From assembly GCA_020351995.1 (NCBI GenBank), contig CP070674.1, forward strand, positions 3,533,169 through 3,597,168: 64,000 bases of DNA, in the 5' to 3' direction. The first letter of the stretch is position 1. The number at the start of each line of letters is the position of its first letter. The DNA is from Candidatus Zixiibacteriota bacterium (GTDB lineage: Bacteria; Zixibacteria; MSB-5A5; GN15; FEB-12). Shown piece by piece: positions 43,005 through 62,706 of the stretch. Below the pieces are notes generated by a model. That model was given only the letters and a program-made list of their open reading frames with translations. It had not been told where the DNA came from and searched no databases. A program made the position numbers and the translations under genes.

Positions 43005-43032
43005 TTGACAGAAGGTGAAATTACGCTATATT
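43005..43032 (+). promoter_or_regulatory. Sigma70-type promoter
   Basis: GGGTTGACA-16 nt-TATATT. Confidence 0.6.
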
Positions 43033-47864: not shown

Positions 47865-48065
47865 GGGACCTCCCCCAGGACCGCAAAACCCCCAGCGAGC
47901 CAGGCAACAAAAAGGTCACCACGACCCGTTAAGAACAGGACGACTCGGGGATCAACCAACCCCGAATCCATACTAAACAAACCCGTTATGTATTGTTTGT
48001 CTGAAAGGTAGTCTCGACTTTACTTTACGGATCCTCAAAACGGCAGCACATTAAAAATCGATTAA

Positions 48066-48140
48066 TTACTACATGAGCGGGAACCTGAGCCGTATCCGAA
48101 TAGTTAGTAACGTATCCAAACGGGATAGCACAAGGGGTTC
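48066..48140 (+). repeat. Conserved ~75-nt upstream element (copy 1), shared with 56033-56108
   Basis: The blocks TTACT.CA.GA.CGGGAACC, GTTA.TAACGTAT.CAAA and GGG.TAG.AC.CA.GGG.TTC are shared between the two copies. Confidence 0.4.
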
Positions 48141-48402
48141 TTGCCGGCAGAAAATCTGTATTACCGTGTATAGTTCGGGCAATACTGTACATATAAAAAT
48201 CAGCATCGATTCAGCAACTCAGGAATAGCTGTTTTAAGTAGCGCTGCACCTGTGGGGCGTCAACTATCATTTCATCTGAGAGAGCACTCACACCGGTGAG
48301 AGCGTCGACTACACAAGAGGTATGATCTTGGGGTGGCCTGTCGGCCATGCATCCCGGTGCACTGCTGCTAACCGGAATTTCTTCCATAAGGAGGTCTTTG
48401 TT

Positions 48403-50447: not shown

Positions 50448-50461
50448 GTAATCTTTCTCCA

Positions 50462-50580
50462 CCCCTCCGGTAACCTCAGACCGACATCAGTCGCTGAGAA
50501 GATTCATAAAATCTCTGTAACCCGTTACGATGCAATAAAAAGCTCCCCCGGTCCTGCTAAGAGCGGGACGACCCGCTGAT
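50462..50580 (+). repeat. Composite intergenic repeat, copy R1 (full, most divergent)
   Basis: CCCCTCCGGTAACCTCAg - 36 nt variable - TGTAACCCGTTACGATGCAATAAAAAGCTCCCCCGG - hairpin GTCCTGC/GCGGGAC - CGACCCGCTGAT. Confidence 0.8.
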
Positions 50581-51013
50581 GGAGCCAGAGGTCGAAAATT
50601 TGGCTGAGCAGTTGGGCGAGGTGGTCGTGGCGTAGGAGTGGCCCCGGCCAAAGTCAAGAAGTACCAAGACCGTTTTTGTCCGATCAGTTGACATTTCAGT
50701 AAATTAAATTGGGTGCGGGCTTGACATGTAGTAAATATTGTCATATCGGTACGTAGTTTTAACGCAGCAGATTTTTGAGCTCCGTGACCTAGGCTGTTCT
50801 AAACGCAGAGGCGCGGGGGCCCCTCGAACAAACTCGCGTCAGATGCGCTTGCGGGCACATCTCTTCTGTTAGCGGAACAGAACAGTTCCTATCATCGTAG
50901 ATCCTGCAACCTGATGAGTGTCACCAGCGGAAGTTGAGAATAAATCGCTAGTCGTACCGTTGTCAACGTGTGCGCAGACAGGTTAACCAAACATCAGAAA
51001 AGTGAGTGAGACA

Positions 51014-52798
51014 ATGAACACTGTTGTCAGAGTAGTGTGCTTTGTGTTCTTAGTGGCACTGTTATTGCCACAAGGAACTTCAGCCACGGGGAGCAGCATT
51101 GTGACGGAGGAAGAATCCATTAACTTCCACGCAGAAAGAGGATTGTTCTTGTCAGCTGAAATAATGAATCCTGGCACCGAAAAACAAATCCTTAAGGTTG
51201 TTCTGCCCGATAGCTCAATTCTATATCAGGATTTGACCACCAAGCAGGCATGGAAGGAACAGAAAGAAAATGGGCAGATGGTGAGATCCAACGTATTAAC
51301 AGAGGAGGAACTGAGCCTGCTCAATGCGTTCCAACTGGATACGGGCTGGATTCCAGCCGGTTCTCCCGTCCAGATCAGAATCTTCTTTAGTGTCAGCGCA
51401 GGGAAGATTGTTGTAGATATGCCCGGCGATATACAACTTTCCTACGACGATGCCGACGTACGGGTGGGGCAAGACCTGAGTACGTGGCTCAGCTGGGTTG
51501 GTGAGCAAGGTGGTGGAAATTTCCATATGGAAGGCGGTATAGAATTCGGCGCCATGTATAGGATATATGTCCCTATGCCCTATCCCATTCCGGATATCGA
51601 TGTGGAAGATTTCTTCCCATATGTTCCGCATCTGGATTTGGGCATCTTTCAGGACTGCGGTTTTACGCCGTTCTTATTGGGCAACACGCTACACTGTGCC
51701 GATCAGCTTTATCCCCAGTGGCTGGGCCTCCCGGCCATCAATTTGGGAGTGGCCAGGCTAGAAATAGGTGCCGAATTCAGTGGCGAGGCGGAAGCAGTTC
51801 TGTCAGGGCAGTCAATTTGCGCAGACAACAGTGCTTGTGTTTATGACGAAGGCGCTTCGCAGAGTTATTCGGTCTTTATCCCCGATTGTCAGACAAATGT
51901 TCCAGTAACGAGCGAGTATAATTCAGATTGCCATTTGGAATGGAAATTGAACATTTCGCCGGGCGGTTGCCTTGTCATTTTTCTTCTTCCGGATATTTGC
52001 CTCACCCCCGTAGCGATACCAATCACCATTTTCAGTCAGGATTTAGCACTTGATTTCAACGAACCGACGGTGTCGTTTGATATAGAAGCGGATGTCCCCT
52101 TTGCGCTCGACATTACTCCCGGGACCTGCCCTAATCCTCTCAGACTAAACCCCAACTCAGATGGCATCCTGCAGGCGGCGCTTCTGGGTACAGCAGAACT
52201 CGACGTGTACGACATCGATGTTTCGACTATTGAGCTGGAAGGGGTGCCGGTTTACATGTCAAGCTACCGCGATGCCGCCACTCCCATGCCCGAGGGTGCG
52301 GAAGTCTGCGAATGCAATACCGACGAACCGGATGGATTTACCGATTTGATCGTGAAGTTCGAGCGGCCCAAGATTGCCGAGGCTCTGGGAGAAGTTCATG
52401 AAGGCGACGAGGTAGAACTGACTATTACCGGGCAACTGCTGGATGGGACATGTTTTGAGGAGACCGATTGCATGCTGATTTTTGAAACCGGACCTCCGGT
52501 GGCCGCGCTTAACGCGTCTGATGAAAGCTCACAGCCGAACAGCTTCTCGATCAGCAACTACCCCAACCCGTTCAACCCAACGACCGCGATCAGCCTCAGC
52601 CTCCCGCACGCCTGTTATGTGAATCTGGAGATCTTCAACATCAAGGGGCAGAGGATAGAGACCTTGGTTGATGGTGAGATGACAGCCGGTTCTCACACGG
52701 TCACGTGGGACGGCAGCAGGGTTGCCAGTGGTATCTATCTGTATCGCCTACAGGCCGGTGACTTTGTTGAATCGAAGAAGATGATGCTTATCAAATAA
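51014..52798 (+). CDS. Hypothetical secreted protein with T9SS C-terminal sorting domain
   Basis: The start is trimmed to MNTVV at 51014. It has a signal peptide. The tail is NYPNPFNPTT...GIYLYRL...KKMMLIK. Confidence 0.7.
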   Translation: MNTVVRVVCFVFLVALLLPQGTSATGSSIVTEEESINFHAERGLFLSAEIMNPGTEKQILKVVLPDSSILYQDLTTKQAWKEQKENGQMVRSNVLTEEELSLLNAFQLDTGWIPAGSPVQIRIFFSVSAGKIVVDMPGDIQLSYDDADVRVGQDLSTWLSWVGEQGGGNFHMEGGIEFGAMYRIYVPMPYPIPDIDVEDFFPYVPHLDLGIFQDCGFTPFLLGNTLHCADQLYPQWLGLPAINLGVARLEIGAEFSGEAEAVLSGQSICADNSACVYDEGASQSYSVFIPDCQTNVPVTSEYNSDCHLEWKLNISPGGCLVIFLLPDICLTPVAIPITIFSQDLALDFNEPTVSFDIEADVPFALDITPGTCPNPLRLNPNSDGILQAALLGTAELDVYDIDVSTIELEGVPVYMSSYRDAATPMPEGAEVCECNTDEPDGFTDLIVKFERPKIAEALGEVHEGDEVELTITGQLLDGTCFEETDCMLIFETGPPVAALNASDESSQPNSFSISNYPNPFNPTTAISLSLPHACYVNLEIFNIKGQRIETLVDGEMTAGSHTVTWDGSRVASGIYLYRLQAGDFVESKKMMLIK

Positions 52799-52831
52799 GA
52801 GCACACGAATAGTGGCAGGAGTCTAAGAAGG

Positions 52832-52980
52832 CTCCTGCCCTACCAATTTGTCCCCACCCTCCGGTAACCTCAAGCTCGTTATCGATTACTACGTTTCTAC
52901 TGGAAATCTCTATAACCTGTTAGTATGCAATAAAGAAGCTCCCCCGGCCCCGCTCTTAGCGGGGCGCCCCGCTGACTAAC
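52832..52980 (+). repeat. Composite intergenic repeat, copy R2 (full)
   Basis: CTCCTGCCCTAC...CCCTCCGGTAACCTCAA - 37 nt variable - TATAACCTGTTAGTATGCAATAAAGAAGCTCCCCCGG - hairpin CCCCGCT/AGCGGGG - CGCCCCGCTGACTAAC. Confidence 0.8.
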
Positions 52981-53115
52981 TACGCCAAAGGGGGAATCTG
53001 GTTGGCCTCCCTTGTGTTTTGAGGCCGGATTGAAACGTGCAACTGTAAAACGTGGTATAAGCATTATAGGTTGAATGCAAGGCTCGCCTCAACGCCAGAC
53101 AATCACCCACCAGGG

Positions 53116-53670
53116 ATGAAAAGAATGAAAAAGAAACATCGTGAGTTTGTGTTATTGACCGTGCTGCTCTGTGTTACTCGACTGAGCGATATATATACAA
53201 CTTTTGTAGTGACCCCGGATCTCGTGAGGGAAACCAACCCTATCGTATCAATGTTCGGGCAGGGGTGGACGTGGCTAATAGGTGTGCAGATTGTTCTCGT
53301 TTCGTCAATCGTATTGCTCAACTATCTCAGTATTTTCAAATCGCGACCGGACCATCCTTCGCAGTCAGGATTATCACTTAGGAAATTTGCGACAAGGTAT
53401 TATCTTGGTCGCGAGCAGCATTGGGTGAATCTTGTTTTTCGTTTACCGTACCGATGGAATGTATTTGTCAGGGCATTCGGCTATACTCTGCCTCGGGTCC
53501 TTATTGTGGTCGGTCTGATGGTTAGTGTGTCGTCGTTATTGCTATCTGTCAGCCAAACCTACGCGAATTATTATCCGCCTCTGCCCGCCTTTTATGCTGT
53601 CATTGCTGCCATTGCTTTACTCGTCTATTACCGGTTCTTCCAGCTCGAATACAACGCTTATCGGAAATAG
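53116..53670 (+). CDS. Small polytopic (about 4 TM) membrane protein, hypothetical
   Basis: The ORF is trimmed to the ATG at 53116, but the start is uncertain. There are several hydrophobic helices. Confidence 0.5.
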   Translation: MKRMKKKHREFVLLTVLLCVTRLSDIYTTFVVTPDLVRETNPIVSMFGQGWTWLIGVQIVLVSSIVLLNYLSIFKSRPDHPSQSGLSLRKFATRYYLGREQHWVNLVFRLPYRWNVFVRAFGYTLPRVLIVVGLMVSVSSLLLSVSQTYANYYPPLPAFYAVIAAIALLVYYRFFQLEYNAYRK

Positions 53671-53726
53671 AGTCGGCATTGAAAGAGTGCGTGGCAGAAA
53701 ACGAGTTATCGATTCTCAGTGGTGGC

Positions 53727-53851
53727 CATCCCTCCGGTAACCTCAACACCGTTATAACTCCAAGCAACCTGCCCGGAACTCTGTAACCGGTTACGATGCA
53801 ATAAAAAAGTTCCCCCGGCCCCGCTCTTAGCGGGGCGACCCGCTGATTAAT
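53727..53851 (+). repeat. Composite intergenic repeat, copy R3 (full)
   Basis: CATCCCTCCGGTAACCTCAA - 35 nt variable - TGTAACCGGTTACGATGCAATAAAAAAGTTCCCCCGG - hairpin CCCCGCT/AGCGGGG - CGACCCGCTGATTAAT. Confidence 0.8.
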
Positions 53852-53858
53852 CACGACG

Positions 53859-53886
53859 GGAATCATCGCTGCCGGCTTTTCGTATA
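53859..53886 (+). promoter_or_regulatory. ECF-sigma-type promoter candidate
   Basis: GGAATC-16 nt-CGTATA (compare the ECF-type pattern GAAAC-N16-CGTATA). It lies 44 nt upstream of the ECF sigma start and overlaps the weakly conserved tail of repeat R3. Confidence 0.5.
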
Positions 53887-53929
53887 AGAACTGTAACATT
53901 CCACCCTTTCCGGGACTCTTTTGTTGCAG

Positions 53930-54508
53930 ATGGACAGCGATAAGAACCTGTTCTGGAAGCTCGTTGAGAGTGAGCACCTCAAGACGCGGGCCCTTTGCCG
54001 CAAGCTGGCGGGCAGCCGCGAAGACGGTGACGACCTCTATCACGATGCCCTGCTGGCGGCACGAAAGGGATTCAGCGGTCTGCGAGATCCTAAGGCGTTT
54101 CGACCCTGGTTTTACCGGATCGTCGTCAATGTCTTCAAACGCCGCTTGAGACGACCGTGGTACCGACTCCTGCTTCCAATCACTTCCGAAGTGGCAGAGG
54201 CTGCCGGCAGTCAAGACCCGGGGGCGAGTTATGTCGCCCGTCGCCACCTCGAGCGCGCTTTCAGGGCAATATCGCCCGAGGACCAGGCCGTTGTGATCAT
54301 GTTCGAGCTGGACGGCCGGTCAACCTCCGAGATCGCGCGCATACTGGGTAAGTCGGAGGGGTCCATCAGAGTCCGGTTACACCGGGCGCGCGGAAGAATG
54401 AGAGAAGCTCTGGCCAGGTTTCAATCGACTTCCAAAAAGGAATCAGTAACAGAACCTGCATTGACAAAGGAGAGCCTATGCGCTGTCACAAAGCCAAACA
54501 AAGACTGA
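53930..54508 (+). CDS. ECF-family RNA polymerase sigma-70 factor
   Basis: Region 2 is DDLYHDALLAARKGF...FRPWFYRIVVN. Region 4 is the HTH LDGRSTSEIARILGKSEGSIRVRLHRAR. The start is trimmed to the ATG at 53930. Confidence 0.85.
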   Translation: MDSDKNLFWKLVESEHLKTRALCRKLAGSREDGDDLYHDALLAARKGFSGLRDPKAFRPWFYRIVVNVFKRRLRRPWYRLLLPITSEVAEAAGSQDPGASYVARRHLERAFRAISPEDQAVVIMFELDGRSTSEIARILGKSEGSIRVRLHRARGRMREALARFQSTSKKESVTEPALTKESLCAVTKPNKD

Positions 54509-55734
54509 CGCAGTTGGTGTCGGCCCGGTCAGTGATGGACGTCGATGACGAACTCAGAGAGCATCTGAAGACCTGCAGTCTCTGCGCTGGTCAGTACCGG
54601 GCGGCGCTTGACCTGCGGTCCTCCCTAGAGCGGGCCTCGGGGTCCGATGATACCGAAACGGTATCGCTGGCGGCGCTCAGGACCCATATCGAGGCGCAGG
54701 TAGAGTCGGCTTCAAAAGAAGCGGAAAGGATGAGTGTTATGGCTAGAGTTGTCGATCAGATGAAGCGCCCCAGATACAGCCTTCCGGCCGCGGCCGTAGC
54801 CGCCGCGGTACTGCTGGCCGTTATATTGCCTCTAAGGTTTGGCAATCTGGTCGAATACGAAGTAGCCTTCGCCAATGTCGACCCGGCGCTGGCGCAGGAT
54901 GGTACCACACTTCGAATGATTCTCGTTGAGATGGAAATCCCCGATGTCGACATTACCATCGGTCCCTGCGACGAAGAGTGCGACCTGGTGATATCGAGCA
55001 TCAAGACGGAGGAGGAGCTCGGCAAGCTCATTGCCGTCTTTGAGGAGGGTGCTAAGGCGACCGTCGTATCGGCGAACAAGGTGGAGATCAATGAAGGCTA
55101 CCGTACGGTCTCCAGCATGACCGAGGATCAGCTGGAACATATGCGGAAGTACAATATCCGGATCATGGAGATGGTCCGGGTAGTGATGCTGGTCGCTATC
55201 GAAGCTTCCCGGCAGGCCGAGGGAGAATTTAAGGGAGAGGCGGTGGTAATTCTCGAGAAATCTGATGGTGTGTACCGCGTGAAATCCTACGAACCGGGAG
55301 ACAATTCCCTTTGGATAAAGATCGTCATGCCGGGCGGGGGTAACGCCCACCGCTTCAGAAACGATGATGGCAGCGCCGAGAAATTTCTGGAAGGCTACGG
55401 GATTGACCCGTCGTTTCTGCGCGATGAGGGCGCCGCCGAAGCAATTGCCAAAGGGACCGATGGCTTGCCTGCGGAATTCTCACTCGGGCAGAACTATCCC
55501 AACCCCTTCAACCCGACCACAGATATCAGCTTCAGTCTGCCGCAGGCCACGCACGTGAAGCTGGAAGTATTCAACATCATGGGACAGAGAGTATCGACCC
55601 TTGTTGATCGCCAGATGGCGGCTGGCACGCATACTGTCACCTTTGATGGCGGTCAGGTTGCCAGCGGCACCTATTTGTATCGCCTGCAGGCCGGCGACAA
55701 AGTGGAAACGAAGAAGATGTCCTTGGTTAAATAG
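54478..55734 (+). CDS. Anti-sigma factor (zf-HC2, single TM) whose extracytoplasmic part ends in a T9SS C-terminal sorting domain
   Basis: It overlaps the sigma gene by 31 nt. Features are an N-terminal H-x3-C-x2-C motif (HLKTCSLCAG), a TM helix (AAAVAAAVLLAVILPL), a ~230-aa outer domain, and the tail NYPNPFNPTT...GTYLYRL...KKMSLVK. Confidence 0.75.
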   Translation: MRCHKAKQRLTQLVSARSVMDVDDELREHLKTCSLCAGQYRAALDLRSSLERASGSDDTETVSLAALRTHIEAQVESASKEAERMSVMARVVDQMKRPRYSLPAAAVAAAVLLAVILPLRFGNLVEYEVAFANVDPALAQDGTTLRMILVEMEIPDVDITIGPCDEECDLVISSIKTEEELGKLIAVFEEGAKATVVSANKVEINEGYRTVSSMTEDQLEHMRKYNIRIMEMVRVVMLVAIEASRQAEGEFKGEAVVILEKSDGVYRVKSYEPGDNSLWIKIVMPGGGNAHRFRNDDGSAEKFLEGYGIDPSFLRDEGAAEAIAKGTDGLPAEFSLGQNYPNPFNPTTDISFSLPQATHVKLEVFNIMGQRVSTLVDRQMAAGTHTVTFDGGQVASGTYLYRLQAGDKVETKKMSLVK

Positions 55735-55762
55735 CCACACCGGCAGAATAGGACCGCAATCG

Positions 55763-55793
55763 GGCTCCGGGCTTTTGTCCGGAGCCTTTTCTC
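55763..55793 (+). terminator. Intrinsic terminator
   Basis: GGCTCCGG-gcttttgt-CCGGAGCC followed by TTTTCTC. Confidence 0.75.
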
Positions 55794-55807
55794 TGTCAGC
55801 CACTTCA

Positions 55808-55930
55808 CCCCTCCGGTAACCTCAACCTGATCTCAATCGCTAAGACCGCACGTTGGGCTTGTGTAACCTATTACAATGCAATAAAAAAGCTCCCCCGGTC
55901 TGCCACCGGCGGGCGAACCGCTGATTAACA
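55808..55930 (+). repeat. Composite intergenic repeat, copy R4 (full)
   Basis: CCCCTCCGGTAACCTCAA - 36 nt variable - TGTAACCTATTACAATGCAATAAAAAAGCTCCCCCGG - hairpin CTGCC/GGCGG - CGAACCGCTGATTAACA. Confidence 0.8.
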
Positions 55931-56032
55931 GAACCCGAATAAATACAAAGTACATCGGTTAAGTGTTGGTTCTCTCCCGCTTCTCTGTGACCTAACGTGG
56001 CGTAAAAAGTTTACTATGATATCACGTCGAAT

Positions 56033-56108
56033 TTACTCCACGAACGGGAACCGGGCCGGAAGTTGGTCGTTATTAACGTATACAAAGAGGGTTAGGACGC
56101 AGGGATTC
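56033..56108 (+). repeat. Conserved ~75-nt upstream element (copy 2), shared with 48066-48140
   Basis: See 48066-48140. It lies about 380 nt upstream of the peroxidase start. Confidence 0.4.
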
Positions 56109-56484
56109 AGCAGCACAAAATTAAGTGTCACGGTGATGGCTTAGCCACACAGGGAAACGCGGATGTTTTCGCGGGGCTCAAAGGCGGCGTCGGACTTGTC
56201 CTTAAGCAAAAGCTCGTACATATAGGATGCGGCTCACAGTTGGCGGAAGCGCCCCTTCGACATTTTGAGTAGAGTGCTTTCCGCTCATTGACGTGGGCAT
56301 GTCGCCAATCATTGATTCCCCCATTCTGTCTGCAAATAGATAAGGCTTTGCTCATCGCCAGTGACTTCAGAAGAAAGGAGGTATGGGTAAGGCGTTACCT
56401 ACCCTTGAAACCGGCTGGAACTACAGCTGTTTCCAGCTGGTCGGTTCTATTACCTATTCTAATTCTTTGCGAAAGGATCAAGTA

Positions 56485-57927
56485 ATGAAGCACTATTTAG
56501 TGTCGTGTTGCGTGATGACATTCGCGATCATGGGGTTGGCAGTAGCAACAGCCGCAGATGATTCAGGTAGTGGGACGAGTTGGCAGTTGAAGCTGGAACG
56601 ACTGGGTGAGTTGATTTACTTCGATGAGAGACTTTCTGAGCCCAATGGCCAGTCGTGTGCCAGTTGCCACCTGCCGGAGGCCGGGTTCGACGATCCCGAC
56701 AATAATCTGCCGGTTTCGGAGGGCGTTATACCAGGCCGGTTCGGCAATCGCAACAGTCCCATCACGGCATATGCCATGTTTAGTCCCGACTTTCATTACG
56801 ACGAAGTTGAGGGCCTCTACGTGGGTGGGCAGTTCTGGGACGGTCGAGCAGTCGACCTCGTTGAGCAAGCTAAAGGGCCGTTTCTCAACCCGCTCGAAAT
56901 GAACAACAGCGACAAAAGTGAGGTAATCAGAGACATACTCTGCGGCGATTATGCCGATCTGTTCCTTCGCTGCTATTACCACTTTGTGGGCCCTCCCTAC
57001 GGTGCGCCTGCGTTGGTGCACAATCCCAACAAAGCGTACGATTTTGTAGCGGAGGCCATTGCCGCCTTTGAACGAACGGAGTTGTTCGGACAATTTTCGT
57101 CGAAGTATGACTGTTACCTGGCAGGGCGCGACGTATTGACCGAGCAGGAGTTGCGGGGCCTTGAGCTCTATGAAGGAAAGGCGCAATGCAATCTCTGTCA
57201 TCCCAATCGCCCGGGCGACGATGGGTCGCCAGCGCTGTTTACGGACTTCACGTACGACAATCTTGGCGTTCCCAAAAACTGGGATAATCCATTTCTTTAC
57301 CTGCCCCCGGAGTTCAATCCGGACGGTGTAAACTTCATCGATTACGGGCTCGGGGGTGTACTGGGTCTTCCCGAGGAAATGGGAAAACACAAGGTGATGA
57401 CACTGCGGAATATCGCTGTCAGCGATCCGTATCTGCACAACGGTTATTACAAAACCTTGCGTGAGGTCGTCTGGTTTTACAACGCCCGTGATGTTGACGA
57501 TACGATTCCTGATCCCGAGGTTCCGGAAAATGTCAACGACACCGAACTCGGCAATCTGGGTTTGACCGATGATGAAGTCGATGACGTGGTTGCGTTCCTG
57601 CAGACGTTAACGGATGGATACAAGCATGGACCGAGCGCGAAGCTGGCCCAGGACCAGCTTCCCAACACCTCCGTCCTGAGGCAAAACTATCCTAATCCGT
57701 TTAACCCGACCACGGAAATCGCATTCACTCTTCCAAGGGCCGCTCATGTGAAGCTGGAAGTATTCAATATCATGGGTCAGAGAGTCGAGACTCTGATTAA
57801 CCGCTACATGGAAGCAGGTGAACATACCGCCAGCTTTGATGCCAGCGGAATGGCCACTGGAATGTACGTCTACCGCTTACAGGCCGGTGGCATCGTCGAG
57901 TCAAAGAAGATGCTGATGGTTAAGTAG
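56485..57927 (+). CDS. Di-haem cytochrome c peroxidase (CCP/MauG family) with T9SS C-terminal sorting domain
   Basis: The start is trimmed to MKHYLVS at 56485, where the signal peptide begins. Haem sites are CASCH and CNLCH. The CCP motif is LRNIAVSDPYLHNGYYKTLREVVWFY. The tail is NYPNPFNPTT...GMYVYRL...KKMLMVK. Confidence 0.85.
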   Translation: MKHYLVSCCVMTFAIMGLAVATAADDSGSGTSWQLKLERLGELIYFDERLSEPNGQSCASCHLPEAGFDDPDNNLPVSEGVIPGRFGNRNSPITAYAMFSPDFHYDEVEGLYVGGQFWDGRAVDLVEQAKGPFLNPLEMNNSDKSEVIRDILCGDYADLFLRCYYHFVGPPYGAPALVHNPNKAYDFVAEAIAAFERTELFGQFSSKYDCYLAGRDVLTEQELRGLELYEGKAQCNLCHPNRPGDDGSPALFTDFTYDNLGVPKNWDNPFLYLPPEFNPDGVNFIDYGLGGVLGLPEEMGKHKVMTLRNIAVSDPYLHNGYYKTLREVVWFYNARDVDDTIPDPEVPENVNDTELGNLGLTDDEVDDVVAFLQTLTDGYKHGPSAKLAQDQLPNTSVLRQNYPNPFNPTTEIAFTLPRAAHVKLEVFNIMGQRVETLINRYMEAGEHTASFDASGMATGMYVYRLQAGGIVESKKMLMVK

Positions 57928-57955
57928 GATCAGCTATCCAACACGAGCAGAAGAA

Positions 57956-57985
57956 GGCTCCGGACTGTTATCCGGAGCCTTTCTC
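57956..57985 (+). terminator. Intrinsic terminator
   Basis: GGCTCCGG-actgttat-CCGGAGCC followed by TTTCTC. Confidence 0.7.
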
Positions 57986-58001
57986 ATATCTGTTGCCCTG
58001 T

Positions 58002-58122
58002 CCCTCCGGTAACCTTAACCGTAGATACGTCTACAGAAGCCCGTTATTAATTCGTGTAACCTATTACAATGCCATAAAAAAGCTCCCCCGGCCCGCCATC
58101 GGCGGACGCCCCGCTGATTAAT
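58002..58122 (+). repeat. Composite intergenic repeat, copy R5 (full)
   Basis: CCCTCCGGTAACCTTAA - 36 nt variable - TGTAACCTATTACAATGCCATAAAAAAGCTCCCCCGG - hairpin CCGCC/GGCGG - CGCCCCGCTGATTAAT. Confidence 0.8.
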
Positions 58123-58212
58123 AAAGTCCTGGGAAGACTCTACATTCTGTGTCAAAGGAAATGCATCGCGGTCAGATCTGAAGAATGGGTGGTGCGTCCT
58201 GTCGGATTTCGT

Positions 58213-59040
58213 TCAGGTCCATGAATCTCCCAATTCTCCAACGGCGGACAATGCCACCGATACGATATCACGAGGAATCGAGAAGTACTTCTCTATGGCC
58301 GCGGGGAGCTCATCCAGCCCCGAAAGCTCATCTATGGAATAGTCTGTTCCCACCGATTTGATTATCGACAGATTGTGAATCATCGTGGAACGATTCGGAT
58401 AGTAGCGAACCAGAAGAACCGAGTTCATGAATGTCTGGCCATCACGAAATGAATTCCGAATAGTCTTCTCGAAGTATTGGATATGACGAGGGGTCGGCTT
58501 GACGGTGTAACCGTGCCTGAGTTGTCCTTCTCTAAACATCTGCATACAGGAGTTCCCGTTTTCGTCTCTGGGACGGAGTCTGTACGAATCGCGACCCAGT
58601 TCAATAACGAAGTCCTCATTCAAGTCGAGTGGCATTGGCACCAGGAATGGCGCGGCATAACCAACATCTATCAAATATTCCTTACCATCCAGTCTAACGA
58701 TATTGGTCAGGTGGACATCGGGGTTATTCATGTCGGCGCCGCACAACTTGGCGTCGTACCCCAGGTGAGTGAGCAGCCGATGCAGATAGTAATTGTTCGA
58801 GTAGCAGGTACCTCCGAAGTGGTACTGTTCGATACCGCCGACGTAGGTCTCCAGATCCGGTATGAAACGCAGACCGTCGCGCCGCAGGTAATAAAGCTTA
58901 GAGATGTTTTCGAATGGCACCCGGGTTACGAAAGCCATGACCAATTGCTCCAGGGTTCCAAGGGTCGGTGTCGGGTGCTCCAGGCCGAGCAGACGCATCA
59001 GGCGATTGAGGGTAGAGGCCACTTCGGGATCGTTTGACAT
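58213..59040 (-). CDS. Arylamine N-acetyltransferase (NAT) family protein
   Basis: VPFENISKLYY, GGTCYSNNYYL (catalytic Cys context) and HLTNIVRLDGKEYLIDVGY. The start is trimmed to MSNDP at 59040, because the TTG extension runs into repeat R6. Confidence 0.8.
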   Translation of the reverse strand: MSNDPEVASTLNRLMRLLGLEHPTPTLGTLEQLVMAFVTRVPFENISKLYYLRRDGLRFIPDLETYVGGIEQYHFGGTCYSNNYYLHRLLTHLGYDAKLCGADMNNPDVHLTNIVRLDGKEYLIDVGYAAPFLVPMPLDLNEDFVIELGRDSYRLRPRDENGNSCMQMFREGQLRHGYTVKPTPRHIQYFEKTIRNSFRDGQTFMNSVLLVRYYPNRSTMIHNLSIIKSVGTDYSIDELSGLDELPAAIEKYFSIPRDIVSVALSAVGELGDSWT

Positions 59041-59056
59041 ATTCGTGCTAATATGG

Positions 59057-59130
59057 CTCTGTAACCCGTTAGTATGCAATAAAAAAGCTTCCCGGGGTCC
59101 GACATCGGCGGGACGACTCGCTGATTAACA
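59057..59130 (+). repeat. Composite intergenic repeat, copy R6 (right half only)
   Basis: CTCTGTAACCCGTTAGTATGCAATAAAAAAGCTTCCCGGGG - degenerate hairpin - CGACTCGCTGATTAACA. Box L and the variable segment are absent. Confidence 0.7.
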
Positions 59131-59149
59131 GTTGTTTCATCATATACGC

Positions 59150-59176
59150 ATTGGGGAGGCATTACGCCTCCCCAAT
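59150..59176. other. Perfect 11-bp hairpin just downstream of the RNHCP stop
   Basis: ATTGGGGAGGC-attac-GCCTCCCCAAT. There is no U-tract on either strand, so it may be an RNA-stabilising or termination hairpin. Confidence 0.4.
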
Positions 59177-59180
59177 CCAC

Positions 59181-59492
59181 TTAACAGGATAGTGATATAA
59201 CCATTTCCCAGTCGTCTGGTTGTTCGGTCATGTCGGCAATGCGATTTGTGCTATGCGCCCCGCACTTATCACACTTATGAACGATCTGGTAACCCTTGCG
59301 AGCATGGTGAATGATCTTTAGAGGTTTCATTAGTCCTCCGCAATCACTTGACCTGTCTCCAGGGTGGGTGTCCACGTGAAGAGAGTACAGGCATTTTGGG
59401 CAGTGGTTTCTATAACTGCCGTTTGTGCATTTGACGACATTCAAACCGCAGTTAAGGCACACAAATCCTGTGTTTTCTTTTTTCTGAGACAT
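59181..59492 (-). CDS. RNHCP-domain zinc-ribbon protein
   Basis: 103 aa. It carries the literal RNHCPKC motif plus the additional Cys pairs CLNC and CDKC. The RBS AAGGAGG lies upstream. Confidence 0.8.
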   Translation of the reverse strand: MSQKKENTGFVCLNCGLNVVKCTNGSYRNHCPKCLYSLHVDTHPGDRSSDCGGLMKPLKIIHHARKGYQIVHKCDKCGAHSTNRIADMTEQPDDWEMVISLSC

Positions 59493-59912
59493 TACCTACC
59501 TCCTTGAAAGTTGTTGGTTCACTTTCGAAGAAGGCAGGGTTCCGTATGTTCTTCCCCGGGTGGGGTATCCGGCTCGAATTGCCTATTTACCGATTCACCG
59601 CCGTTCCTTTAGGGTCAGCGATTACTTTCCGTTCCAGCTTCATCAGGGCCTGTTTCATCCCCGAATCCGGACCTCGACCGGTTTTGTTACTTTTTGCCGG
59701 CCACTGTAATGCGGGATTTACCCACATTCCACGGATAGGTTTAGTGCAATCTCACGGACGTTGGCGTCGTCCCCTGTCAGGAATGTCTCTTGAATACATG
59801 TGGTATTTTCACAGTATTCTCCTACGAGTTAAGAGACAAATAGGTTAACAGAAATATGCACCGACGCTGGTGCGAGATAGCGAAACAGATTTTTGAAGGG
59901 CTCATTTCATGG
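59493..59912 (-). promoter_or_regulatory. Unusually long (~420-nt) GC-rich 5' leader of the RNHCP gene; candidate structured cis-regulatory RNA
   Basis: It lies between a consensus promoter and the RBS. It has no credible ORF and many short complementary GC segments. Confidence 0.4.
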
Positions 59913-59918
59913 GGAAGC

Positions 59919-59947
59919 AGTATACACAATTCGGTTTGAATTGTCAA
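59919..59947 (-). promoter_or_regulatory. Sigma70-type promoter
   Basis: On the minus strand: TTGACA-17 nt-TATACT. Confidence 0.65.
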
Positions 59948-59987
59948 GGGGGGCGATTGAGCCGGAATAACCCACGGACAATCTTTG

Positions 59988-60018
59988 CAGCCCGTTACAA
60001 TTCAATAAAAAAGCTCCC
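59988..60018 (+). repeat. Composite intergenic repeat, copy R7 (31-nt fragment of box R)
   Basis: CAGCCCGTTACAATTCAATAAAAAAGCTCCC. The sequence diverges on both sides. Confidence 0.4.
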
Positions 60019-60107
60019 GATATTGGACGAAATATGCAACTCGCTTCTGAAGCCGGAGATTGAGACTCTGGCTAAGCAGCTAAGGGAATTAATGATAGCG
60101 TGAGGCA

Positions 60108-60135
60108 TTGACAAAAAGCGGAATTGTAGTATATA
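60108..60135 (+). promoter_or_regulatory. Sigma70-type promoter
   Basis: TTGACA-16 nt-TATATA. Confidence 0.6.
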
Positions 60136-60266
60136 GAAATATATACACATCTCGCGTCGGCATTGGATAGCGTCAGTAGCAGGTCTATTCAAGTTAATCA
60201 TCACCAAGTCATATCATCAGATTGGTACCTGCAAAGGCGTTGAAACTCACTCCTGGGAGGCTTATC
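60136..60266 (+). promoter_or_regulatory. Conserved ~130-nt 5' leader (family member C)
   Basis: ACACATCTCGCG...AGTAGCAGGT-(TCATC/TCAT motifs)-ACCTGC...GGGAGGCTTATCATG. Confidence 0.5.
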
Positions 60267-61601
60267 ATGAAAAGGTCAATTACACTTGCGGCATTGTTGA
60301 CGCTGTTTCTGGCGACCTCGGGGGAACCGGCGGAGCCGCTTTTCAGCGACCCGGAGAATTACGCAGTGGGAGATGGTCCCGAATCGGTCATCGCTGCTGA
60401 TCTTGACGGCGACGGCGACGCTGATCTGGCCGTGGTCAATGGCAACTCCGGCTATGTCTCCGTCCTGGAAAACAACGGCGACGGAGCGTTTGCTACTGCT
60501 CTGACTTATGAGGTTGGGGGTATGCCTCGGTCTATCTGTTCGTCCGACCTTGACGGCGACGGCGACATTGACTTGGCCGTGGCCAATCAATTTTCCGGCG
60601 ATGTCTCCATCCTGAAAAACAACGGTGACGGTACCTTTGTCGACGCGGTCAATTACGCAGGCGGAGGATCAGTTGTCTCTATCTCTGCCGCTGACCTTGA
60701 TGGGGACGGTGACACGGATCTGGCCGCAGCCAATTATTACTCCTCCAATGTCTCCATCCTGAAGAATAACGGCGACGGGACGTTTGCCGCCGTTCTGACT
60801 TATGGGACGGGGTATCGCCCGTTTTCGGTCGGTTCATCAGATTTTGACGGTGACGGCGATGTCGATCTGGCCGTGGCCAATGAATTTTCCGGCGATGTCT
60901 CCATCCTGAAAAACAACGGTGACGGTACCTTTGTCGACGCGGTCAATTACGCAATCGGGCCGGTAGCTCTTGCTGTTTGTGCCTCCGACTTTGATGCGGA
61001 TGGTGATGCGGACCTGGCCGTGACCGATGGTTTTCTCAACAGCGTCTCCGTCCTTAGAAACAACGGTGACGGGACCTTTGTCTCTTCCCTGAATTACCCG
61101 GTTGGCAGTATTCCTCGTTCCGTCTTTGCCTCCGACCTTGATGGCGACGCGGATGCCGATCTCGCCGTGGCCAATCTTGGTTCCGACAATGTTTCTGTCT
61201 TATTAAACAACGGCGACGGGACGTTTCTTCCAGCCATGAACTATGCAGCAGGAGATGCTCCAAAAGCTGTATTTGCGTCTGACCTTGACGGCGACGGCGA
61301 CAATGATTTGGCCGTGGCCAATTATGATGCCAACACCGTTTCTGTACTGACTAATCTGACTCCCTCTTTACAGTCTCCATACCGGTGCCGGGTACGTGGC
61401 GATGTCAACCGCAATCACAGCGTAGACATTCTTGACATCGATTACTTCATAGAATGGCTACACCGTGGGGGACCCGCTCCGGTTTGTCTTGAAGAAGCCG
61501 ACGTGGATGGTAACCGTCAGCAGGATATTCTGGATATCGATTACATGGTCGACTGGCTGTTCCGCGGTGGGCCGGAGTTGGTGCCGTGCCCAAAGACCTG
61601 A
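60267..61601 (+). CDS. FG-GAP/VCBS-repeat protein with C-terminal dockerin-like module
   Basis: The start is trimmed to MKRSITL at 60267. It is a paralog of 36954-38279, with repeats DLDGDGDxDLAVAN...VSILKNNGDGTF and dockerin-like DVNRNHSVDILD and DVDGNRQQDILD. Confidence 0.85.
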   Translation: MKRSITLAALLTLFLATSGEPAEPLFSDPENYAVGDGPESVIAADLDGDGDADLAVVNGNSGYVSVLENNGDGAFATALTYEVGGMPRSICSSDLDGDGDIDLAVANQFSGDVSILKNNGDGTFVDAVNYAGGGSVVSISAADLDGDGDTDLAAANYYSSNVSILKNNGDGTFAAVLTYGTGYRPFSVGSSDFDGDGDVDLAVANEFSGDVSILKNNGDGTFVDAVNYAIGPVALAVCASDFDADGDADLAVTDGFLNSVSVLRNNGDGTFVSSLNYPVGSIPRSVFASDLDGDADADLAVANLGSDNVSVLLNNGDGTFLPAMNYAAGDAPKAVFASDLDGDGDNDLAVANYDANTVSVLTNLTPSLQSPYRCRVRGDVNRNHSVDILDIDYFIEWLHRGGPAPVCLEEADVDGNRQQDILDIDYMVDWLFRGGPELVPCPKT

Positions 61602-62482
61602 TCAAACCCGGACCATATGAGGTCGGTTATCTGGAAATGCGGGTCGATCTTGACTCCTCCATCATACTTTTGAATGAGGATTTCAGAACCGTCACGGTGG
61701 CAGTATGGTATCCCGACGTCAAGAAAAGCAGGAACCTGATCAAGAAAGAGGTTCCCGCGCGGTTCCCAGTTATAGTGCTATGTCCCGGTGCCGAGGCCGG
61801 GCTCGATGTTTATATGATTCTGACCGGATATCTGTCGAGTTACGGGTTTATCGTAGCGACCTTCCCGTCTTCCGCCGATCAGTATACTTACGGACGGGAG
61901 ATCTACCTCTGGGAATTCAGGCAATTGCAGCAGGAGTATCTGAAAATTGCCGCGACCAGGGCGGGCAACATGAATATCGCCGATCCCGATCGGATGGCAG
62001 TCATGGGCCACAGCTACGGTGGTCCGGCGGCCATTTTGTTCGCCCTGTCGGATGAGAAAGTTGATGCCGTGGTCAGCCTGGACGGCACCGATATCTGCCG
62101 CGGTTATACGGCCAAGATGGCCGAGCAGTTCCCGGCCTATAACCCTGCAAATCTTCGCGATCCCTTTTTGCTTATTCTCGCCGATGCCAGTTACTGCATC
62201 GGTGAGAAACGCAGCCTCGACTTTTTCGAAGGCATTACCGGGACCGATGCCTGTATCGTGGAGCTATTCAAATTCGGACATGAACATTTCGGCTACACGC
62301 CTTCTTTCAACGCCGATCCTGAGGTCAAACAAAGCTTCGAAATAGCCTGTTTGTACCTGCTTAACTTTTTCAAGGCCCACCTCTATGGTGATGTCGCGGC
62401 CAATGACTGGCTGCTGAAATCGCCCGAAGAACTCGGTCTACCGAAGGAATTGTTTGCGCTGAAGCGAAAGATGAACGAATAA
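61586..62482 (+). CDS. Alpha/beta-hydrolase (dienelactone hydrolase / PAF-acetylhydrolase-like)
   Basis: 298 aa with the nucleophile elbow GHSYGG. The GTG start overlaps the upstream gene by 16 nt, and the start is uncertain. Confidence 0.7.
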   Translation: MPKDLIKPGPYEVGYLEMRVDLDSSIILLNEDFRTVTVAVWYPDVKKSRNLIKKEVPARFPVIVLCPGAEAGLDVYMILTGYLSSYGFIVATFPSSADQYTYGREIYLWEFRQLQQEYLKIAATRAGNMNIADPDRMAVMGHSYGGPAAILFALSDEKVDAVVSLDGTDICRGYTAKMAEQFPAYNPANLRDPFLLILADASYCIGEKRSLDFFEGITGTDACIVELFKFGHEHFGYTPSFNADPEVKQSFEIACLYLLNFFKAHLYGDVAANDWLLKSPEELGLPKELFALKRKMNE

Positions 62483-62555
62483 GCCGGTGACAGTTGAAGT
62501 AGGTCGGGTTCCGATTCCATGAAAATACGATTGTGAGAAACCCGACATCCTTCCT

Positions 62556-62706
62556 GCTCCTGCCCTACAATTCTACCCCGCCCCTTCGGTAACCTCAACC
62601 ACAGCTAACACCACAGAAACCCACCACCAATTCTTGTAACCTGTTACAATGCAATAAAAAAGCTCCCCCGGTCCCGCTGGAAGCGGGACGACCCGCTGAT
62701 TAACAG
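62556..62706 (+). repeat. Composite intergenic repeat, copy R8 (full, closest to consensus)
   Basis: GCTCCTGCCCTAC...CCCCTTCGGTAACCTCAA - 36 nt variable - TGTAACCTGTTACAATGCAATAAAAAAGCTCCCCCGG - hairpin GTCCCGC/GCGGGAC - GACCCGCTGATTAACAG. Confidence 0.8.

What the first reader, a model, noticed from the sequence alone, without database searches (positions are those of the whole stretch)
50462..62706. Eight co-oriented composite repeats partition 12 kb into unrelated gene cassettes
Copies lie at 50462-50580, 52832-52980, 53727-53851, 55808-55930, 58002-58122, 59057-59130 (right half only), 59988-60018 (fragment) and 62556-62706. All are intergenic and all have the same orientation. Each interval between copies holds one self-contained unit of unrelated function. 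The units are a T9SS-tailed hypothetical protein, a small membrane protein, an ECF sigma/anti-sigma pair, a di-haem peroxidase, an arylamine N-acetyltransferase, an RNHCP protein, and an FG-GAP protein plus hydrolase. For R1, R2, R4 and R5 the upstream gene ends with its own terminator-like hairpin immediately before the repeat. Apart from one partial fragment at 42.9 kb, nothing comparable occurs in the first 50 kb. This layout is what a cassette array built by site-specific recombination looks like (compare attC/VCR arrays and integrase-less attC clusters). However, the repeat does not fit the attC model and no recombinase is in the window, so any mechanism would be undescribed. Alternative explanations are a REP/MITE-like element that prefers terminator-proximal DNA, or a modular promoter/insulator element.
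Basis: partly seen in the sequence, partly recalled or inferred. Interest (0 to 1): 0.85.

Follow-up and report, generated by a model that had tools for sequence, protein, structure and literature searches.

The report
tRNA-derived repeats bounding swappable gene cassettes
The co-oriented ~130-base repeats in this Zixibacteria chromosome are copies of the 3' half of a tRNA-Asn gene plus its ~100-base downstream flank, and they sit at the joints where small self-contained gene units are inserted, missing or reordered in related genomes, so this is a compact version, with no integrase in view, of the familiar tRNA-linked genomic island.

Summary
There are eight copies, all on the + strand, none expected by chance, plus a ninth decayed copy at 47.9 kb. 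The interpretation needs revising. The right half of each repeat is the reverse complement of tRNA-Asn(GTT), from the anticodon loop to the acceptor end. The left half is the trailer that follows a genuine tRNA-Asn gene in a related Zixiibacteriota genome (bin295). In most copies the T-arm is replaced by a variable GC hairpin. Two conserved boxes keep a fixed 48-nt spacing although the spacer between them is free to vary. Every hairpin-type copy ends inside the 7-nt anticodon loop and abuts a different sequence. That is the classic mark of anticodon-centred tyrosine-integrase att sites. Four relatives carry different cassettes at these joints. One comparison is a clean empty versus occupied site: bin295 has X–repeat–cytochrome, and bin19 has X–repeat–ECF sigma/anti-sigma–repeat–cytochrome. 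No recombinase lies in about 110 kb of inspected sequence, and no intact tRNA lies in the window. Best reading: a hypervariable islet built on tRNA-Asn-derived att-like sites. The enzyme is unknown, and homologous recombination also contributes. This is a new variant of a known kind. Side find: a 16S rRNA head-domain mimic in the 5' leader of RNHCP genes.

The parts
47866..47960 (+). R0: decayed repeat copy (AGGCAACAAAAAGGTCACC..GACGACTCGGGGATCAACC) directly upstream of the cytochrome leader
   Evidence: Weak alone (nhmmer E=4.3). Its counterparts upstream of the same leader are intact in bin19 (L031 11347-11477) and bin295 (L037 14687-14762).
48322..50391 (+). Cassette gene: multihaem cytochrome-like protein with a T9SS C-terminal domain. 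Its ~360-nt leader (47961-48321) is conserved.
   Evidence: Pfam and NCBIfam. The leader and gene are 75-87% identical to bin19 and bin295, but each genome has a different upstream neighbour.
50458..50622 (+). R1: left box 50463-50480, mid box 50516-50547, hairpin-type T-arm. It continues into a decayed tRNA 5'-half-like stretch, so it is a full-length pseudo-tRNA-Asn on the - strand.
51014..52798 (+). Cassette gene: hypothetical protein with a T9SS sorting domain
52853..52983 (+). R2: left box 52857-52874, mid box 52911-52943, hairpin CCCCGCT-CTT-AGCGGGG, right box
53116..53670 (+). Cassette gene: small membrane protein with no family match
53726..53854 (+). R3: left box 53730-53747, mid box 53782-53814, same hairpin as R2, right box ..GCTGATTAAT
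   Evidence: The right box and downstream flank are 25/25 identical to the bin19 copy upstream of the same ECF gene.
53930..55734 (+). Cassette: ECF sigma factor (53930-54508) and anti-sigma protein with a T9SS tail (54478-55734)
   Evidence: Pfam. Orthologues are 81% identical in bin19 and 77% in a third genome. No orthologue from bin295 appears among the hits.
55805..55931 (+). R4: left box 55809-55826, mid box 55862-55894, 17-nt hairpin, right box ..GCTGATTAACAG (complete anticodon loop)
56383..57927 (+). Cassette gene: di-haem cytochrome c peroxidase with a T9SS tail
   Evidence: Identical to P0031.
57998..58126 (+). R5: left box 58002-58019, mid box 58055-58087, hairpin CCGCC-ATC-GGCGG, right box
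58213..59040 (-). Cassette gene: arylamine N-acetyltransferase. The probable start is at 59040, 17 nt from the truncated edge of R6.
59055..59131 (+). R6: mid box 59060-59092, hairpin and right box with a complete anticodon loop. The left box and spacer are missing.
   Evidence: An 88.6%-identical relative (L033) diverges about 22 nt before this boundary.
59181..59492 (-). Cassette gene: RNHCP-domain protein. Its 5' leader holds a 16S rRNA-like structured element at 59590-59738 (-).
59968..60088 (+). R7: mid box 59986-60018 plus a decayed full-length tRNA-Asn pseudogene (- strand sense) that keeps T-arm remnants (TTCG..TCCA). It is followed by the promoter TTGACA-17-TATATA at 60108-60136.
   Evidence: The same module lies upstream of FG-GAP genes in bin19 (L011) and a third genome (L032), and upstream of the S8 peptidase gene in bin295 (L037 18648-18777).
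60267..62482 (+). Cassette: FG-GAP repeat protein (60267-61601) and alpha/beta hydrolase (61586-62482)
62578..62706 (+). R8: the copy closest to the genuine locus. It matches 18/18 from the anticodon loop to the variable loop and 36/37 over the acceptor 3' strand plus trailer. The T-arm is replaced by TCCCGCT-GGA-AGCGGGA.

Best explanation
The repeats are att-like recombination joints derived from a tRNA-Asn gene. Each unit, read on the + strand, has five parts: a left box (CCCTCCGGTAACCTCAAC), a free 33-nt spacer, a mid box (TGTAACCnGTTACAATGCAATAAAAAAGCTCCCCCGG), a variable GC hairpin, and a right box (CGACCCGCTGATTAAC). Read on the - strand, this is the tRNA-Asn anticodon loop, the 3' anticodon stem, the variable loop, a hairpin in place of the T-arm, the 3' acceptor strand, the T-run, and about 100 nt of the tRNA's trailer.

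Shown: the tRNA origin, the boundary inside the anticodon loop, the conserved boxes and their spacing, and the different cassette content and order in relatives, including one empty/occupied site pair.

Inferred: the joints were first made by an anticodon-loop-centred tyrosine integrase encoded elsewhere in the genome or on a lost element. Small promoter-gene-terminator units that each carry one repeat copy have since been inserted, excised and moved between such joints, by that enzyme acting in trans and partly by homologous recombination or gene conversion between copies. The result is a hypervariable islet of accessory genes, mostly for secreted or envelope proteins.
For: (1) tRNA origin. 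In bin295, ARAGORN calls a genuine tRNA-Asn(GTT) at L007 532-605 (-). It is followed by the same mid and left boxes. R8 matches it 18/18 and 36/37 on either side of the T-arm. A phage tRNA-Asn shares the same conserved segments.

(2) Boundary. All hairpin-type copies stop within the 7-nt anticodon loop (TTAA|, GTTAA| or CTGTTAA|) and then run into at least 8 unrelated sequences. Islander reports anticodon-centred attP sites for 2083 of 3919 tDNA islands (PMC4383910).

(3) Constraint. The left box is 18/18 identical in window R3 and R4, in both bin19 copies and in bin295. Box spacing is 48 nt in 9 of 11 copies. The spacer is only 33-49% identical between copies at orthologous positions, whereas third codon positions of the flanking genes are 69-75% identical.

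(4) Cassette variation. Downstream of the anti-sigma gene lies the peroxidase in the window, the cytochrome leader in bin19, and FG-GAP in a third genome. The single repeat in bin295 (L037 14696-14761) aligns with both repeats that flank ECF/anti-sigma in bin19 (L031 ..9375 and 11408..). That is an empty versus occupied site. The repeat-plus-cytochrome unit sits at three different places in three genomes. A relative with 88.6% nucleotide identity carries the RNHCP unit but not R6 with the acetyltransferase gene. No close RNHCP orthologue from bin19 or bin295 appears among the best hits.

(5) Distribution. The mid-box pattern matched only three stretches in two Zixiibacteriota chromosomes among 185,579 representative genomes. 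It had no true hit in metagenome or viral contigs.

(6) Precedent. Partial tRNAs scattered through islands after serial integration are documented (bioRxiv 10.1101/2020.12.28.424599).
Against: No integrase or other recombinase was found in the 64-kb window, in 21 kb of bin19 (L031), in 21 kb and 8 kb of bin295 (L037, L007), or in 8 kb of bin19 (L011). No intact tRNA lies in the window or next to the bin19 copies. The hairpin-type 3' half lacks a T-loop, so it could not restore a working tRNA after integration. R1 and the R7-type copies contain full-length pseudo-tRNAs, which att duplication alone does not produce. Junctions between genomes are not all at one position. In the third genome the switch lies in the spacer or mid box. 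Between R3 and its bin19 counterpart it lies to the right of the hairpin. Copies within a genome resemble each other more than copies at the same position in different genomes (83% against 72-76%), which points to gene conversion. The intervals (0.9-2.6 kb) are far smaller than typical integrative elements.
Confidence: 0.5

Rival explanations
1. No dedicated recombinase is involved. The unit is a conserved functional intergenic module, such as a protein-binding insulator, derived from the tRNA-Asn trailer. Cassettes are shuffled only by RecA-type (Campbell-like) recombination and gene conversion between copies.
For: Exchange points differ between comparisons. Copies within a genome are homogenised. 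The 37-nt mid box is long enough for homologous exchange. No recombinase is nearby. Hairpin loops occur in flipped forms, TAAGA and TCTTA, which is typical of DNA-level palindrome turnover.
Against: It does not explain how at least 8 unrelated sequences came to be joined exactly inside the 7-nt anticodon loop. It does not explain why tRNA-derived segments stay conserved while the spacer drifts. No function for the boxes is evident. No consensus RNA or ssDNA structure was found beyond local hairpins.
Confidence: 0.25
2. The array is only the wreck of a tandemly duplicated tRNA-Asn locus. Several tRNA-Asn genes with their trailers decayed in place and unrelated genes drifted in. The repeats have no present activity.
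For: R1 and the R7-type copies are full-length pseudo-tRNAs. bin295 shows partial duplications of the tRNA 5' half and promoter next to the genuine gene.
Against: The boxes are perfectly conserved while the neighbouring spacer is randomised. Cassette order differs among close relatives, including an empty/occupied pair. Intervening genes are unrelated and lie on both strands.
Confidence: 0.08
3. The repeat is a portable promoter or 5'-leader module that co-regulates the downstream genes.
For: Most copies lie upstream of a + strand gene. R7-type copies are followed by a conserved TTGACA-17-TATAnT promoter that is shared by unrelated genes (FG-GAP, S8 peptidase).
Against: That promoter lies outside the repeat and is also present where the repeat is absent, at 36.9 kb and 42.9 kb. 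R5, R6 and R8 are followed by the 3' ends of - strand genes. Sigma-70-like matches across 47.5-64 kb are no more frequent than in shuffles, and none lies in the conserved mid or right box.
Confidence: 0.07
4. The repeat is a MITE/REP-like non-autonomous transposable element that prefers DNA near terminators.
For: It is a discrete ~130-nt unit with sharp ends that contains palindromes and lies in intergenic DNA.
Against: It has no terminal inverted repeats and no target-site duplication. All copies have the same orientation and are clustered. The pattern found only a few loci in two complete related genomes, though it undercounts. No REP GTAG-type motif is present and no Rfam family matches.
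Confidence: 0.05
5. Breaks made by a tRNA-Asn-targeting homing endonuclease (GIY-YIG type), rather than an integrase, seed the insertions at the anticodon region.
For: In bin295, a GIY-YIG gene (Pfam E=1.2e-14) sits between two 46-nt direct repeats made of tRNA-Asn anticodon-stem and D-arm fragments with a GC hairpin. This lies next to the genuine tRNA.
Against: No GIY-YIG gene is in the window, L031, L006 or L011. The protein is a bare catalytic domain. Cassette insertion by break repair has no precedent that I could check here.
Confidence: 0.05

Closest known systems
tDNA-fragment-bounded genomic islands and their tandem arrays (Islander principle, PMC4383910)
   Same: Co-oriented direct repeats consisting of a tRNA 3' fragment that begins in the anticodon loop. 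Accessory genes lie between them. Content varies between relatives.
   Different: No integrase and no intact tRNA is in view. There are 8-9 fragments in 15 kb, whereas Islander found arrays of 3 or more in only 4 of 3919 islands and rejects candidates under 2 kb. The repeat extends about 100 nt past the tRNA end, with conserved boxes. The T-arm is replaced by a hairpin, so the fragment could not rebuild the tRNA.
Tycheposon-shaped islands of Prochlorococcus (bioRxiv 10.1101/2020.12.28.424599)
   Same: Repeated integration at one tRNA pushes older material inwards. It leaves partial tRNAs and cargo without mobility genes scattered through a hypervariable island.
   Different: Those islands still contain recognisable elements with integrase and replication modules, and the spacing between fragments is several kb. 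Here the units are single genes and no element backbone is seen.
Integron cassette arrays and integrase-less attC clusters (CALINs) (own knowledge)
   Same: An array of unrelated small units, each tied to one copy of a recombination-site-like repeat of about 60-140 nt, all co-oriented. In CALINs the integrase is not adjacent.
   Different: There is no R''/R' pairing and no global hairpin. The cassettes carry their own promoters and terminators, and some are inverted. The site is tRNA-derived.
CIMEs and accretion of integrative elements at one att site (own knowledge; Streptococcus thermophilus ICESt1/3 literature)
   Same: Units bounded by att sites but lacking recombination genes, thought to be mobilised in trans. 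The att sites are co-oriented and tandem.
   Different: CIMEs are decayed ICEs of several kb that sit next to a helper element. No helper is seen here.
pdif modules of Acinetobacter plasmids (own knowledge)
   Same: Discrete gene modules bounded by short recombination sites and reshuffled between replicons without an adjacent recombinase.
   Different: pdif sites are 28-nt XerC/XerD sites in alternating orientation. No dif-like site is recognisable here, and all copies are co-oriented.

Membership tests
tDNA-fragment att repeats of integrase-borne genomic islands | The repeat is an end fragment of a tRNA gene that starts at the anticodon loop or T-loop | tested here: met
   Identity to the genuine tRNA-Asn runs from the anticodon loop to the 3' end (18/18 and 36/37 in R8). 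The boundary lies within the 7-nt loop in all hairpin-type copies.
tDNA-fragment att repeats of integrase-borne genomic islands | An intact cognate tRNA gene lies at one end of the array, in the same orientation | tested here: not met
   ARAGORN finds no tRNA in the window, L031, L006, L011 or L032. The sequence beyond 64 kb could not be retrieved.
tDNA-fragment att repeats of integrase-borne genomic islands | A tyrosine integrase gene lies within each island | tested here: not met
   No recombinase domain was found in any ORF of at least 150 aa in the window, nor in the gene lists of L031, L037, L007 and L011.
tDNA-fragment att repeats of integrase-borne genomic islands | The fragment carried by the element can regenerate a functional tRNA | tested here: not met
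   The T-arm is replaced by an 8-bp-stem, 3-nt-loop GC hairpin in R1-R6, R8, both bin19 ECF-flanking copies (L031) and the bin295 copy in L037.
Integron attC / CALIN | Imperfect inverted repeats R''-L''/L'-R' (RYYYAAC...GTTRRRY) that fold one strand into a long hairpin | tested here: not met
   ssDNA and RNA folds give only two local hairpins, with z-scores of -0.8 to -1.8. RNAalifold finds no end-to-end pairing. GTTAATC on the - strand misses GTTRRRY by one base and has no partner. IntegronFinder itself could not be run.
Integron attC / CALIN | Promoterless, co-oriented cassettes | tested here: not met
   The FG-GAP unit has its own conserved TTGACA-17-TATAnT promoter. The acetyltransferase and RNHCP genes are on the opposite strand. 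Several units carry their own terminators.
REP/BIME | Short (20-40 nt) palindromes present in tens to hundreds of copies genome-wide, with a RAYT transposase | tested here: not met
   The unit is ~130 nt. The mid-box pattern hits only 2 loci in the complete bin19 chromosome and 1 in bin295, with 2 more bin295 copies found by nhmmer. No RAYT gene was seen. The whole-genome count for the source genome was not obtainable.
MITE | Terminal inverted repeats and target-site duplications | tested here: not met
   The ends CCCTCCGG... and ...GCTGATTAAC are not inverted copies of each other, and the flanks show no duplication.
Any Rfam RNA family | A covariance-model match | tested here: not met
   No match to the repeats at gathering score or at E<=5.
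Xer/dif-type modules (IMEX, pdif) | A 28-nt dif-like site with XerC and XerD arms | not tested
   Compared by eye with the E. coli dif consensus only, and no resemblance was seen. No Zixibacteria dif model was available.

The most novel reading that the evidence does not exclude
A previously undescribed integron-like system. A ~130-nt site evolved from the tRNA-Asn attB/attP region (two conserved boxes at fixed spacing, a sequence-free hairpin, and the anticodon-loop core). It would serve as the portable recombination site of single-gene cassettes that carry their own promoters, captured and reshuffled in trans by a distant, still unidentified recombinase or nuclease in Zixibacteria.
Probability: 0.2. 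Interest if true: 0.8.

Novelty: new variant of a known kind. Interest (0 to 1): 0.55.

Why it matters
If the joints are active, this locus shows how a tRNA-targeting integration system can be reduced to a minimal cassette exchanger for accessory genes, mostly for secreted or envelope proteins, in an uncultured phylum. It would bridge classical tDNA islands and integron-like arrays. It also bears on an open question in integron biology, namely how unrelated genes become tied to a recombination site. For annotation, it means that intergenic 'repeats' should be checked against tRNA halves before they are called novel.

Tried and rejected
(1) Extending past the window's right end failed. The last gene runs off the window. 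One guessed protein start was not on record. The source chromosome (3.6 Mb) is only reachable as 1.3-2.7-kb Logan contigs that break near the repeats.

(2) The metagenome scan with the mid-box pattern returned 14 stretches. All were false positives on inspection.

(3) Three viral-contig scans found only an ordinary phage tRNA-Asn.

(4) The third protein search, with the FG-GAP protein, was wasted. Longer repeat proteins outranked the orthologues I wanted.

(5) RNA-level function: RNAalifold on either strand gave no covarying structure across the unit, and Rfam gave nothing.

(6) attC-like folding was rejected.

(7) Terminator role on the - strand: the hairpin lies 10 nt from the T-run, and the scan flags only one weak case.

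(8) I first judged bin295 to be a distant relative, from paralogous FG-GAP genes. One search showed 86-88% nucleotide identity in syntenic genes, so that inference was dropped.

(9) I first read R7 as the in-place remnant of the ancestral tRNA. That reading is weakened because the same full-length pseudo-tRNA module also lies upstream of the S8 peptidase gene in bin295.

Full report
**Observation.** The repeat family is real. The repeat finder, MAFFT and an nhmmer profile built from the six full copies recover copies at 50458-50584, 52853-52983, 53726-53854, 55805-55931, 57998-58126 and 62578-62706. They also recover a right-hand partial copy at 59055-59131 and a shorter match at 59968-60018. 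All are on the + strand. Three sub-motifs each occur six times with up to 3 mismatches, against 0.00, 0.05 and 0.50 expected. None of the 100 shuffles per pattern reached six. The 269-nt similarity just upstream of R1, R2, R4 and R5 is the T9SS C-terminal sorting domain with its terminator. That module is equally similar (about 70-76% nucleotide identity) in T9SS genes outside the array, so it is not part of the repeat.

**What the repeat is.** A degenerate pattern from the most conserved stretch was scanned over 185,579 representative genomes. It gave 13 stretches, of which only three are true. All three come from two Candidatus Zixiibacteriota MAG chromosomes, bin19 (CP070777.1) and bin295 (CP070756.1). 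In bin295 the match lies immediately downstream of a genuine tRNA-Asn(GTT) gene on the opposite strand (ARAGORN, L007 532-605). Read on the - strand, a window copy such as R8 is as follows:
- CTGTTAATCAGCGGGTCG: the anticodon loop, the 3' anticodon stem and the variable loop, 18/18 identical to the tRNA.
- A 17-19-nt GC hairpin where the T-arm should be, about 50% identical to the tRNA, which is no better than random.
- CCGGGGGAGC, the T-run and the trailer, 36/37 identical.

Rfam has no family for it, even at E<=5.

**Anatomy and constraint.** On the + strand the unit reads:
- left box, CCCTCCGGTAACCTCAAC;
- a 33-nt spacer;
- mid box, TGTAACCnGTTACAATGCAATAAAAAAGCTCCCCCGG, which contains the palindrome TGTAAC-nn-GTTACA;
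- the hairpin;
- right box, CGACCCGCTGATTAAC.

The left box is 18/18 identical in window R3 and R4, in both bin19 copies and in bin295. The distance between boxes is 48 nt in 9 of 11 copies. Yet the spacer is only 33-49% identical between copies at orthologous positions in the window and bin19, while third codon positions of the adjacent ECF sigma and anti-sigma genes are 69-75% identical. The boxes and their spacing are therefore held constant while the DNA between them turns over.

The hairpin comes in two stem families (CCCGCT/AGCGGG and CCGCC/GGCGG). One C-G to T-A exchange keeps the pairing. The loops occur in flipped forms, TAAGA and TCTTA. Neither strand folds into a global structure, and there is no covariation outside the local hairpin.

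**Two kinds of copy.** Most copies are hairpin-type and stop inside the anticodon loop. The sequence after TTAA, GTTAA or CTGTTAA differs in every copy, giving at least 8 unrelated flanks. The R7-type copies keep a decayed genuine T-arm (TTCG..TCCA) and continue through a decayed 5' half. They are full-length tRNA-Asn pseudogenes, followed by a conserved TTGACA-17-TATAnT promoter. The R7-type copies are window R7, two copies in bin19 L011, one in a third genome (L032), and one upstream of the S8 peptidase gene in bin295. R1 is a hybrid: it has a hairpin T-arm and also a 5'-half remnant. No intact 5' half or D-arm occurs in the window.

**Comparative evidence.** The window comes from a 3.6-Mb Zixiibacteriota chromosome, since P0001, P0031 and P0121 are 100% identical to window proteins. 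That chromosome could not be retrieved. Four relatives could be compared.

1. The ECF sigma/anti-sigma unit with a repeat on each side is present in bin19 at 82% nucleotide identity. After the downstream repeat comes the cytochrome leader, not the peroxidase.
2. In a third genome (GCA_975902615.1), the same anti-sigma gene is followed by left and mid boxes and then by the R7-type pseudo-tRNA and the FG-GAP gene.
3. bin295 is 86-88% identical to the window in syntenic genes. There the cytochrome unit, with its own repeat, lies between the C25 and S8 peptidase genes, which are adjacent in the window.
4. The single bin295 repeat (L037 14696-14761) aligns with both repeats that bracket ECF/anti-sigma in bin19. 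The flanks on either side are also homologous: L031 8787-9375 matches L037 14162-14761, and L031 11408-12084 matches L037 14696-15370. This is an empty site and an occupied site, with one repeat against two.
5. A relative at 88.6% identity carries the RNHCP unit but diverges about 22 nt before the R6 boundary, so R6 and the acetyltransferase gene are absent there.
6. The anti-sigma search returned orthologues from the window, bin19 and the third genome, but none from bin295. The RNHCP search returned no close orthologue from bin19 or bin295. That these units are accessory genes is my inference from those hit lists.

**Mechanism.** A boundary that falls within the 7-nt anticodon loop and is joined to many unrelated sequences is what anticodon-centred tyrosine integrases produce. 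Islander classifies 2083 of 3919 tDNA islands this way (PMC4383910). Partial tRNAs strewn through hypervariable islands after serial integration and decay are described for Prochlorococcus (bioRxiv 10.1101/2020.12.28.424599). tRNA fragments as remnants of integration are general (PMC9897764). The conserved boxes at fixed spacing would fit integrase arm-type binding sites, but that is inference.

Several facts weigh against a simple integrase story:
- No recombinase was found in about 110 kb of inspected sequence.
- No intact tRNA flanks the arrays.
- The hairpin-type fragment could not rebuild a tRNA.
- Exchange points differ between genome pairs.
- Copies within one genome resemble each other more than copies at the same position in other genomes.

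Homologous recombination and gene conversion between copies must therefore contribute. My best estimate is an origin by site-specific recombination, with maintenance as att-like joints and mixed present-day exchange (confidence 0.5). Pure homologous shuffling of a functional module is the main rival (0.25).

The promoter reading is weak. The one promoter that could be mapped lies outside the repeat, and it occurs without the repeat at 36.9 and 42.9 kb. The MITE/REP reading is weak because there are no terminal inverted repeats, the orientation is uniform, and only a few loci were found in two complete genomes. The pattern does undercount: it missed two bin295 copies that nhmmer found.

**Novelty.** The kind is known: tRNA-fragment-bounded, hypervariable islands. 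The variant is unusual in four ways:
- There are 8-9 joints in 15 kb, whereas Islander records arrays of 3 or more in 4 of 3919 islands.
- The units are single genes with their own promoters and terminators.
- The repeat extends about 100 nt beyond the tRNA, with boxes at fixed spacing.
- The T-arm is systematically replaced by a hairpin.

I rate it a new variant of a known kind, with interest 0.55. The reading as a true integron-like cassette system with a tRNA-derived site remains open (probability about 0.2).

**Limits.** Several fetched loci contain 100-nt masked stretches. IntegronFinder could not be run. The statements on CIMEs, pdif modules and attC consensus rest on my own knowledge.

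Noticed in passing
window 59590-59738 (-), upstream of the RNHCP gene 59492-59181; also L033 178-326, L034 2730-2894, L036 63-228: A ~150-165-nt element scores above or near the Rfam gathering threshold for bacterial SSU rRNA (54.8, 47.9, 62.5 and 54.0 bits; threshold 50). It covers model positions ~925-1374 (the head, or 3' major, domain), with two internal deletions closed by short loops. It lies about 100 nt upstream, on the same strand, of RNHCP-domain (PF12647) genes in four contigs. Two of these come from a distant lineage in which the protein is only 62% identical. RNAalifold finds 12 of 39 pairs with compensatory changes. This looks like a conserved 16S rRNA mimic acting as a leader, possibly for autoregulation by a ribosome-binding Zn-ribbon protein. 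No dedicated Rfam family matched, and the paper library holds nothing on the RNHCP protein domain.
   Followed up: partly
L007 (bin295 CP070756.1) 606-1131: Next to the genuine tRNA-Asn, a small GIY-YIG nuclease gene (Pfam E=1.2e-14) lies between two 46-nt direct repeats (89% identical). The repeats are made of tRNA-Asn anticodon-stem and D-arm pieces with a CCCGCC-TTCG-GCGGG hairpin at the anticodon position. There is also an 86-nt duplication of the tRNA 5' end and its upstream (promoter) region. The tRNA-Asn gene is therefore also remodelled on its 5' side.
   Followed up: partly
window 50581-50637 and 60023-60103; L011 5770-5845 and 7440-7520; L032 1700-1775: An apparent short ORF (..PE(I/V)E.LA.QL.E(L/V)(M/V)(I/V)A*) is conserved after R1 and the R7-type copies. 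It is antisense to the decayed tRNA 5' half and lies upstream of the mapped promoter. It may be a by-product of the pseudo-tRNA sequence rather than a real peptide. One copy has an in-frame TGA.
   Followed up: partly
window 47961-48321; L031 11480-11830; L037 14763-15197: The ~360-430-nt non-coding leader upstream of the cytochrome gene is conserved across three genomes: 74-76% between bin19 and either the window or bin295, and 87% between the window and bin295. That is as conserved as the coding sequence. It may hold a structured RNA or a small ORF.
   Followed up: no
window 11822, 34342, 42906, 45221, 50391, 52798, 55734, 57927 (gene ends): T9SS cargo genes across the window share a C-terminal domain that is 70-76% identical at the nucleotide level. 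Two terminator hairpin families follow them (GGCTCCGG..CCGGAGCC and GGCAGGAG..CTCCTGCC). This suggests concerted evolution of the 3' module across unrelated genes.
   Followed up: partly
window 43005-43032, 60108-60136, 36.9 kb; L037 18750-18780: A shared promoter block (GGGGTTGACAnAAGGnGnAATnnnnnTATAnT) precedes unrelated genes for secreted proteins (S8 peptidase, two FG-GAP genes). This organism therefore uses canonical sigma-70-type promoters, and the promoter block has been reused.
   Followed up: partly
window 60356-61322: The FG-GAP gene is built of six to seven 147-nt tandem units that are 65-78% identical at the DNA level.
   Followed up: no
window 62746-64000 (-): The gene to the right of R8 runs off the window and has no Pfam or NCBIfam match. 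It does carry an HExxH-like motif (VHENFHQFQ), so it may be a metalloprotease.
   Followed up: no
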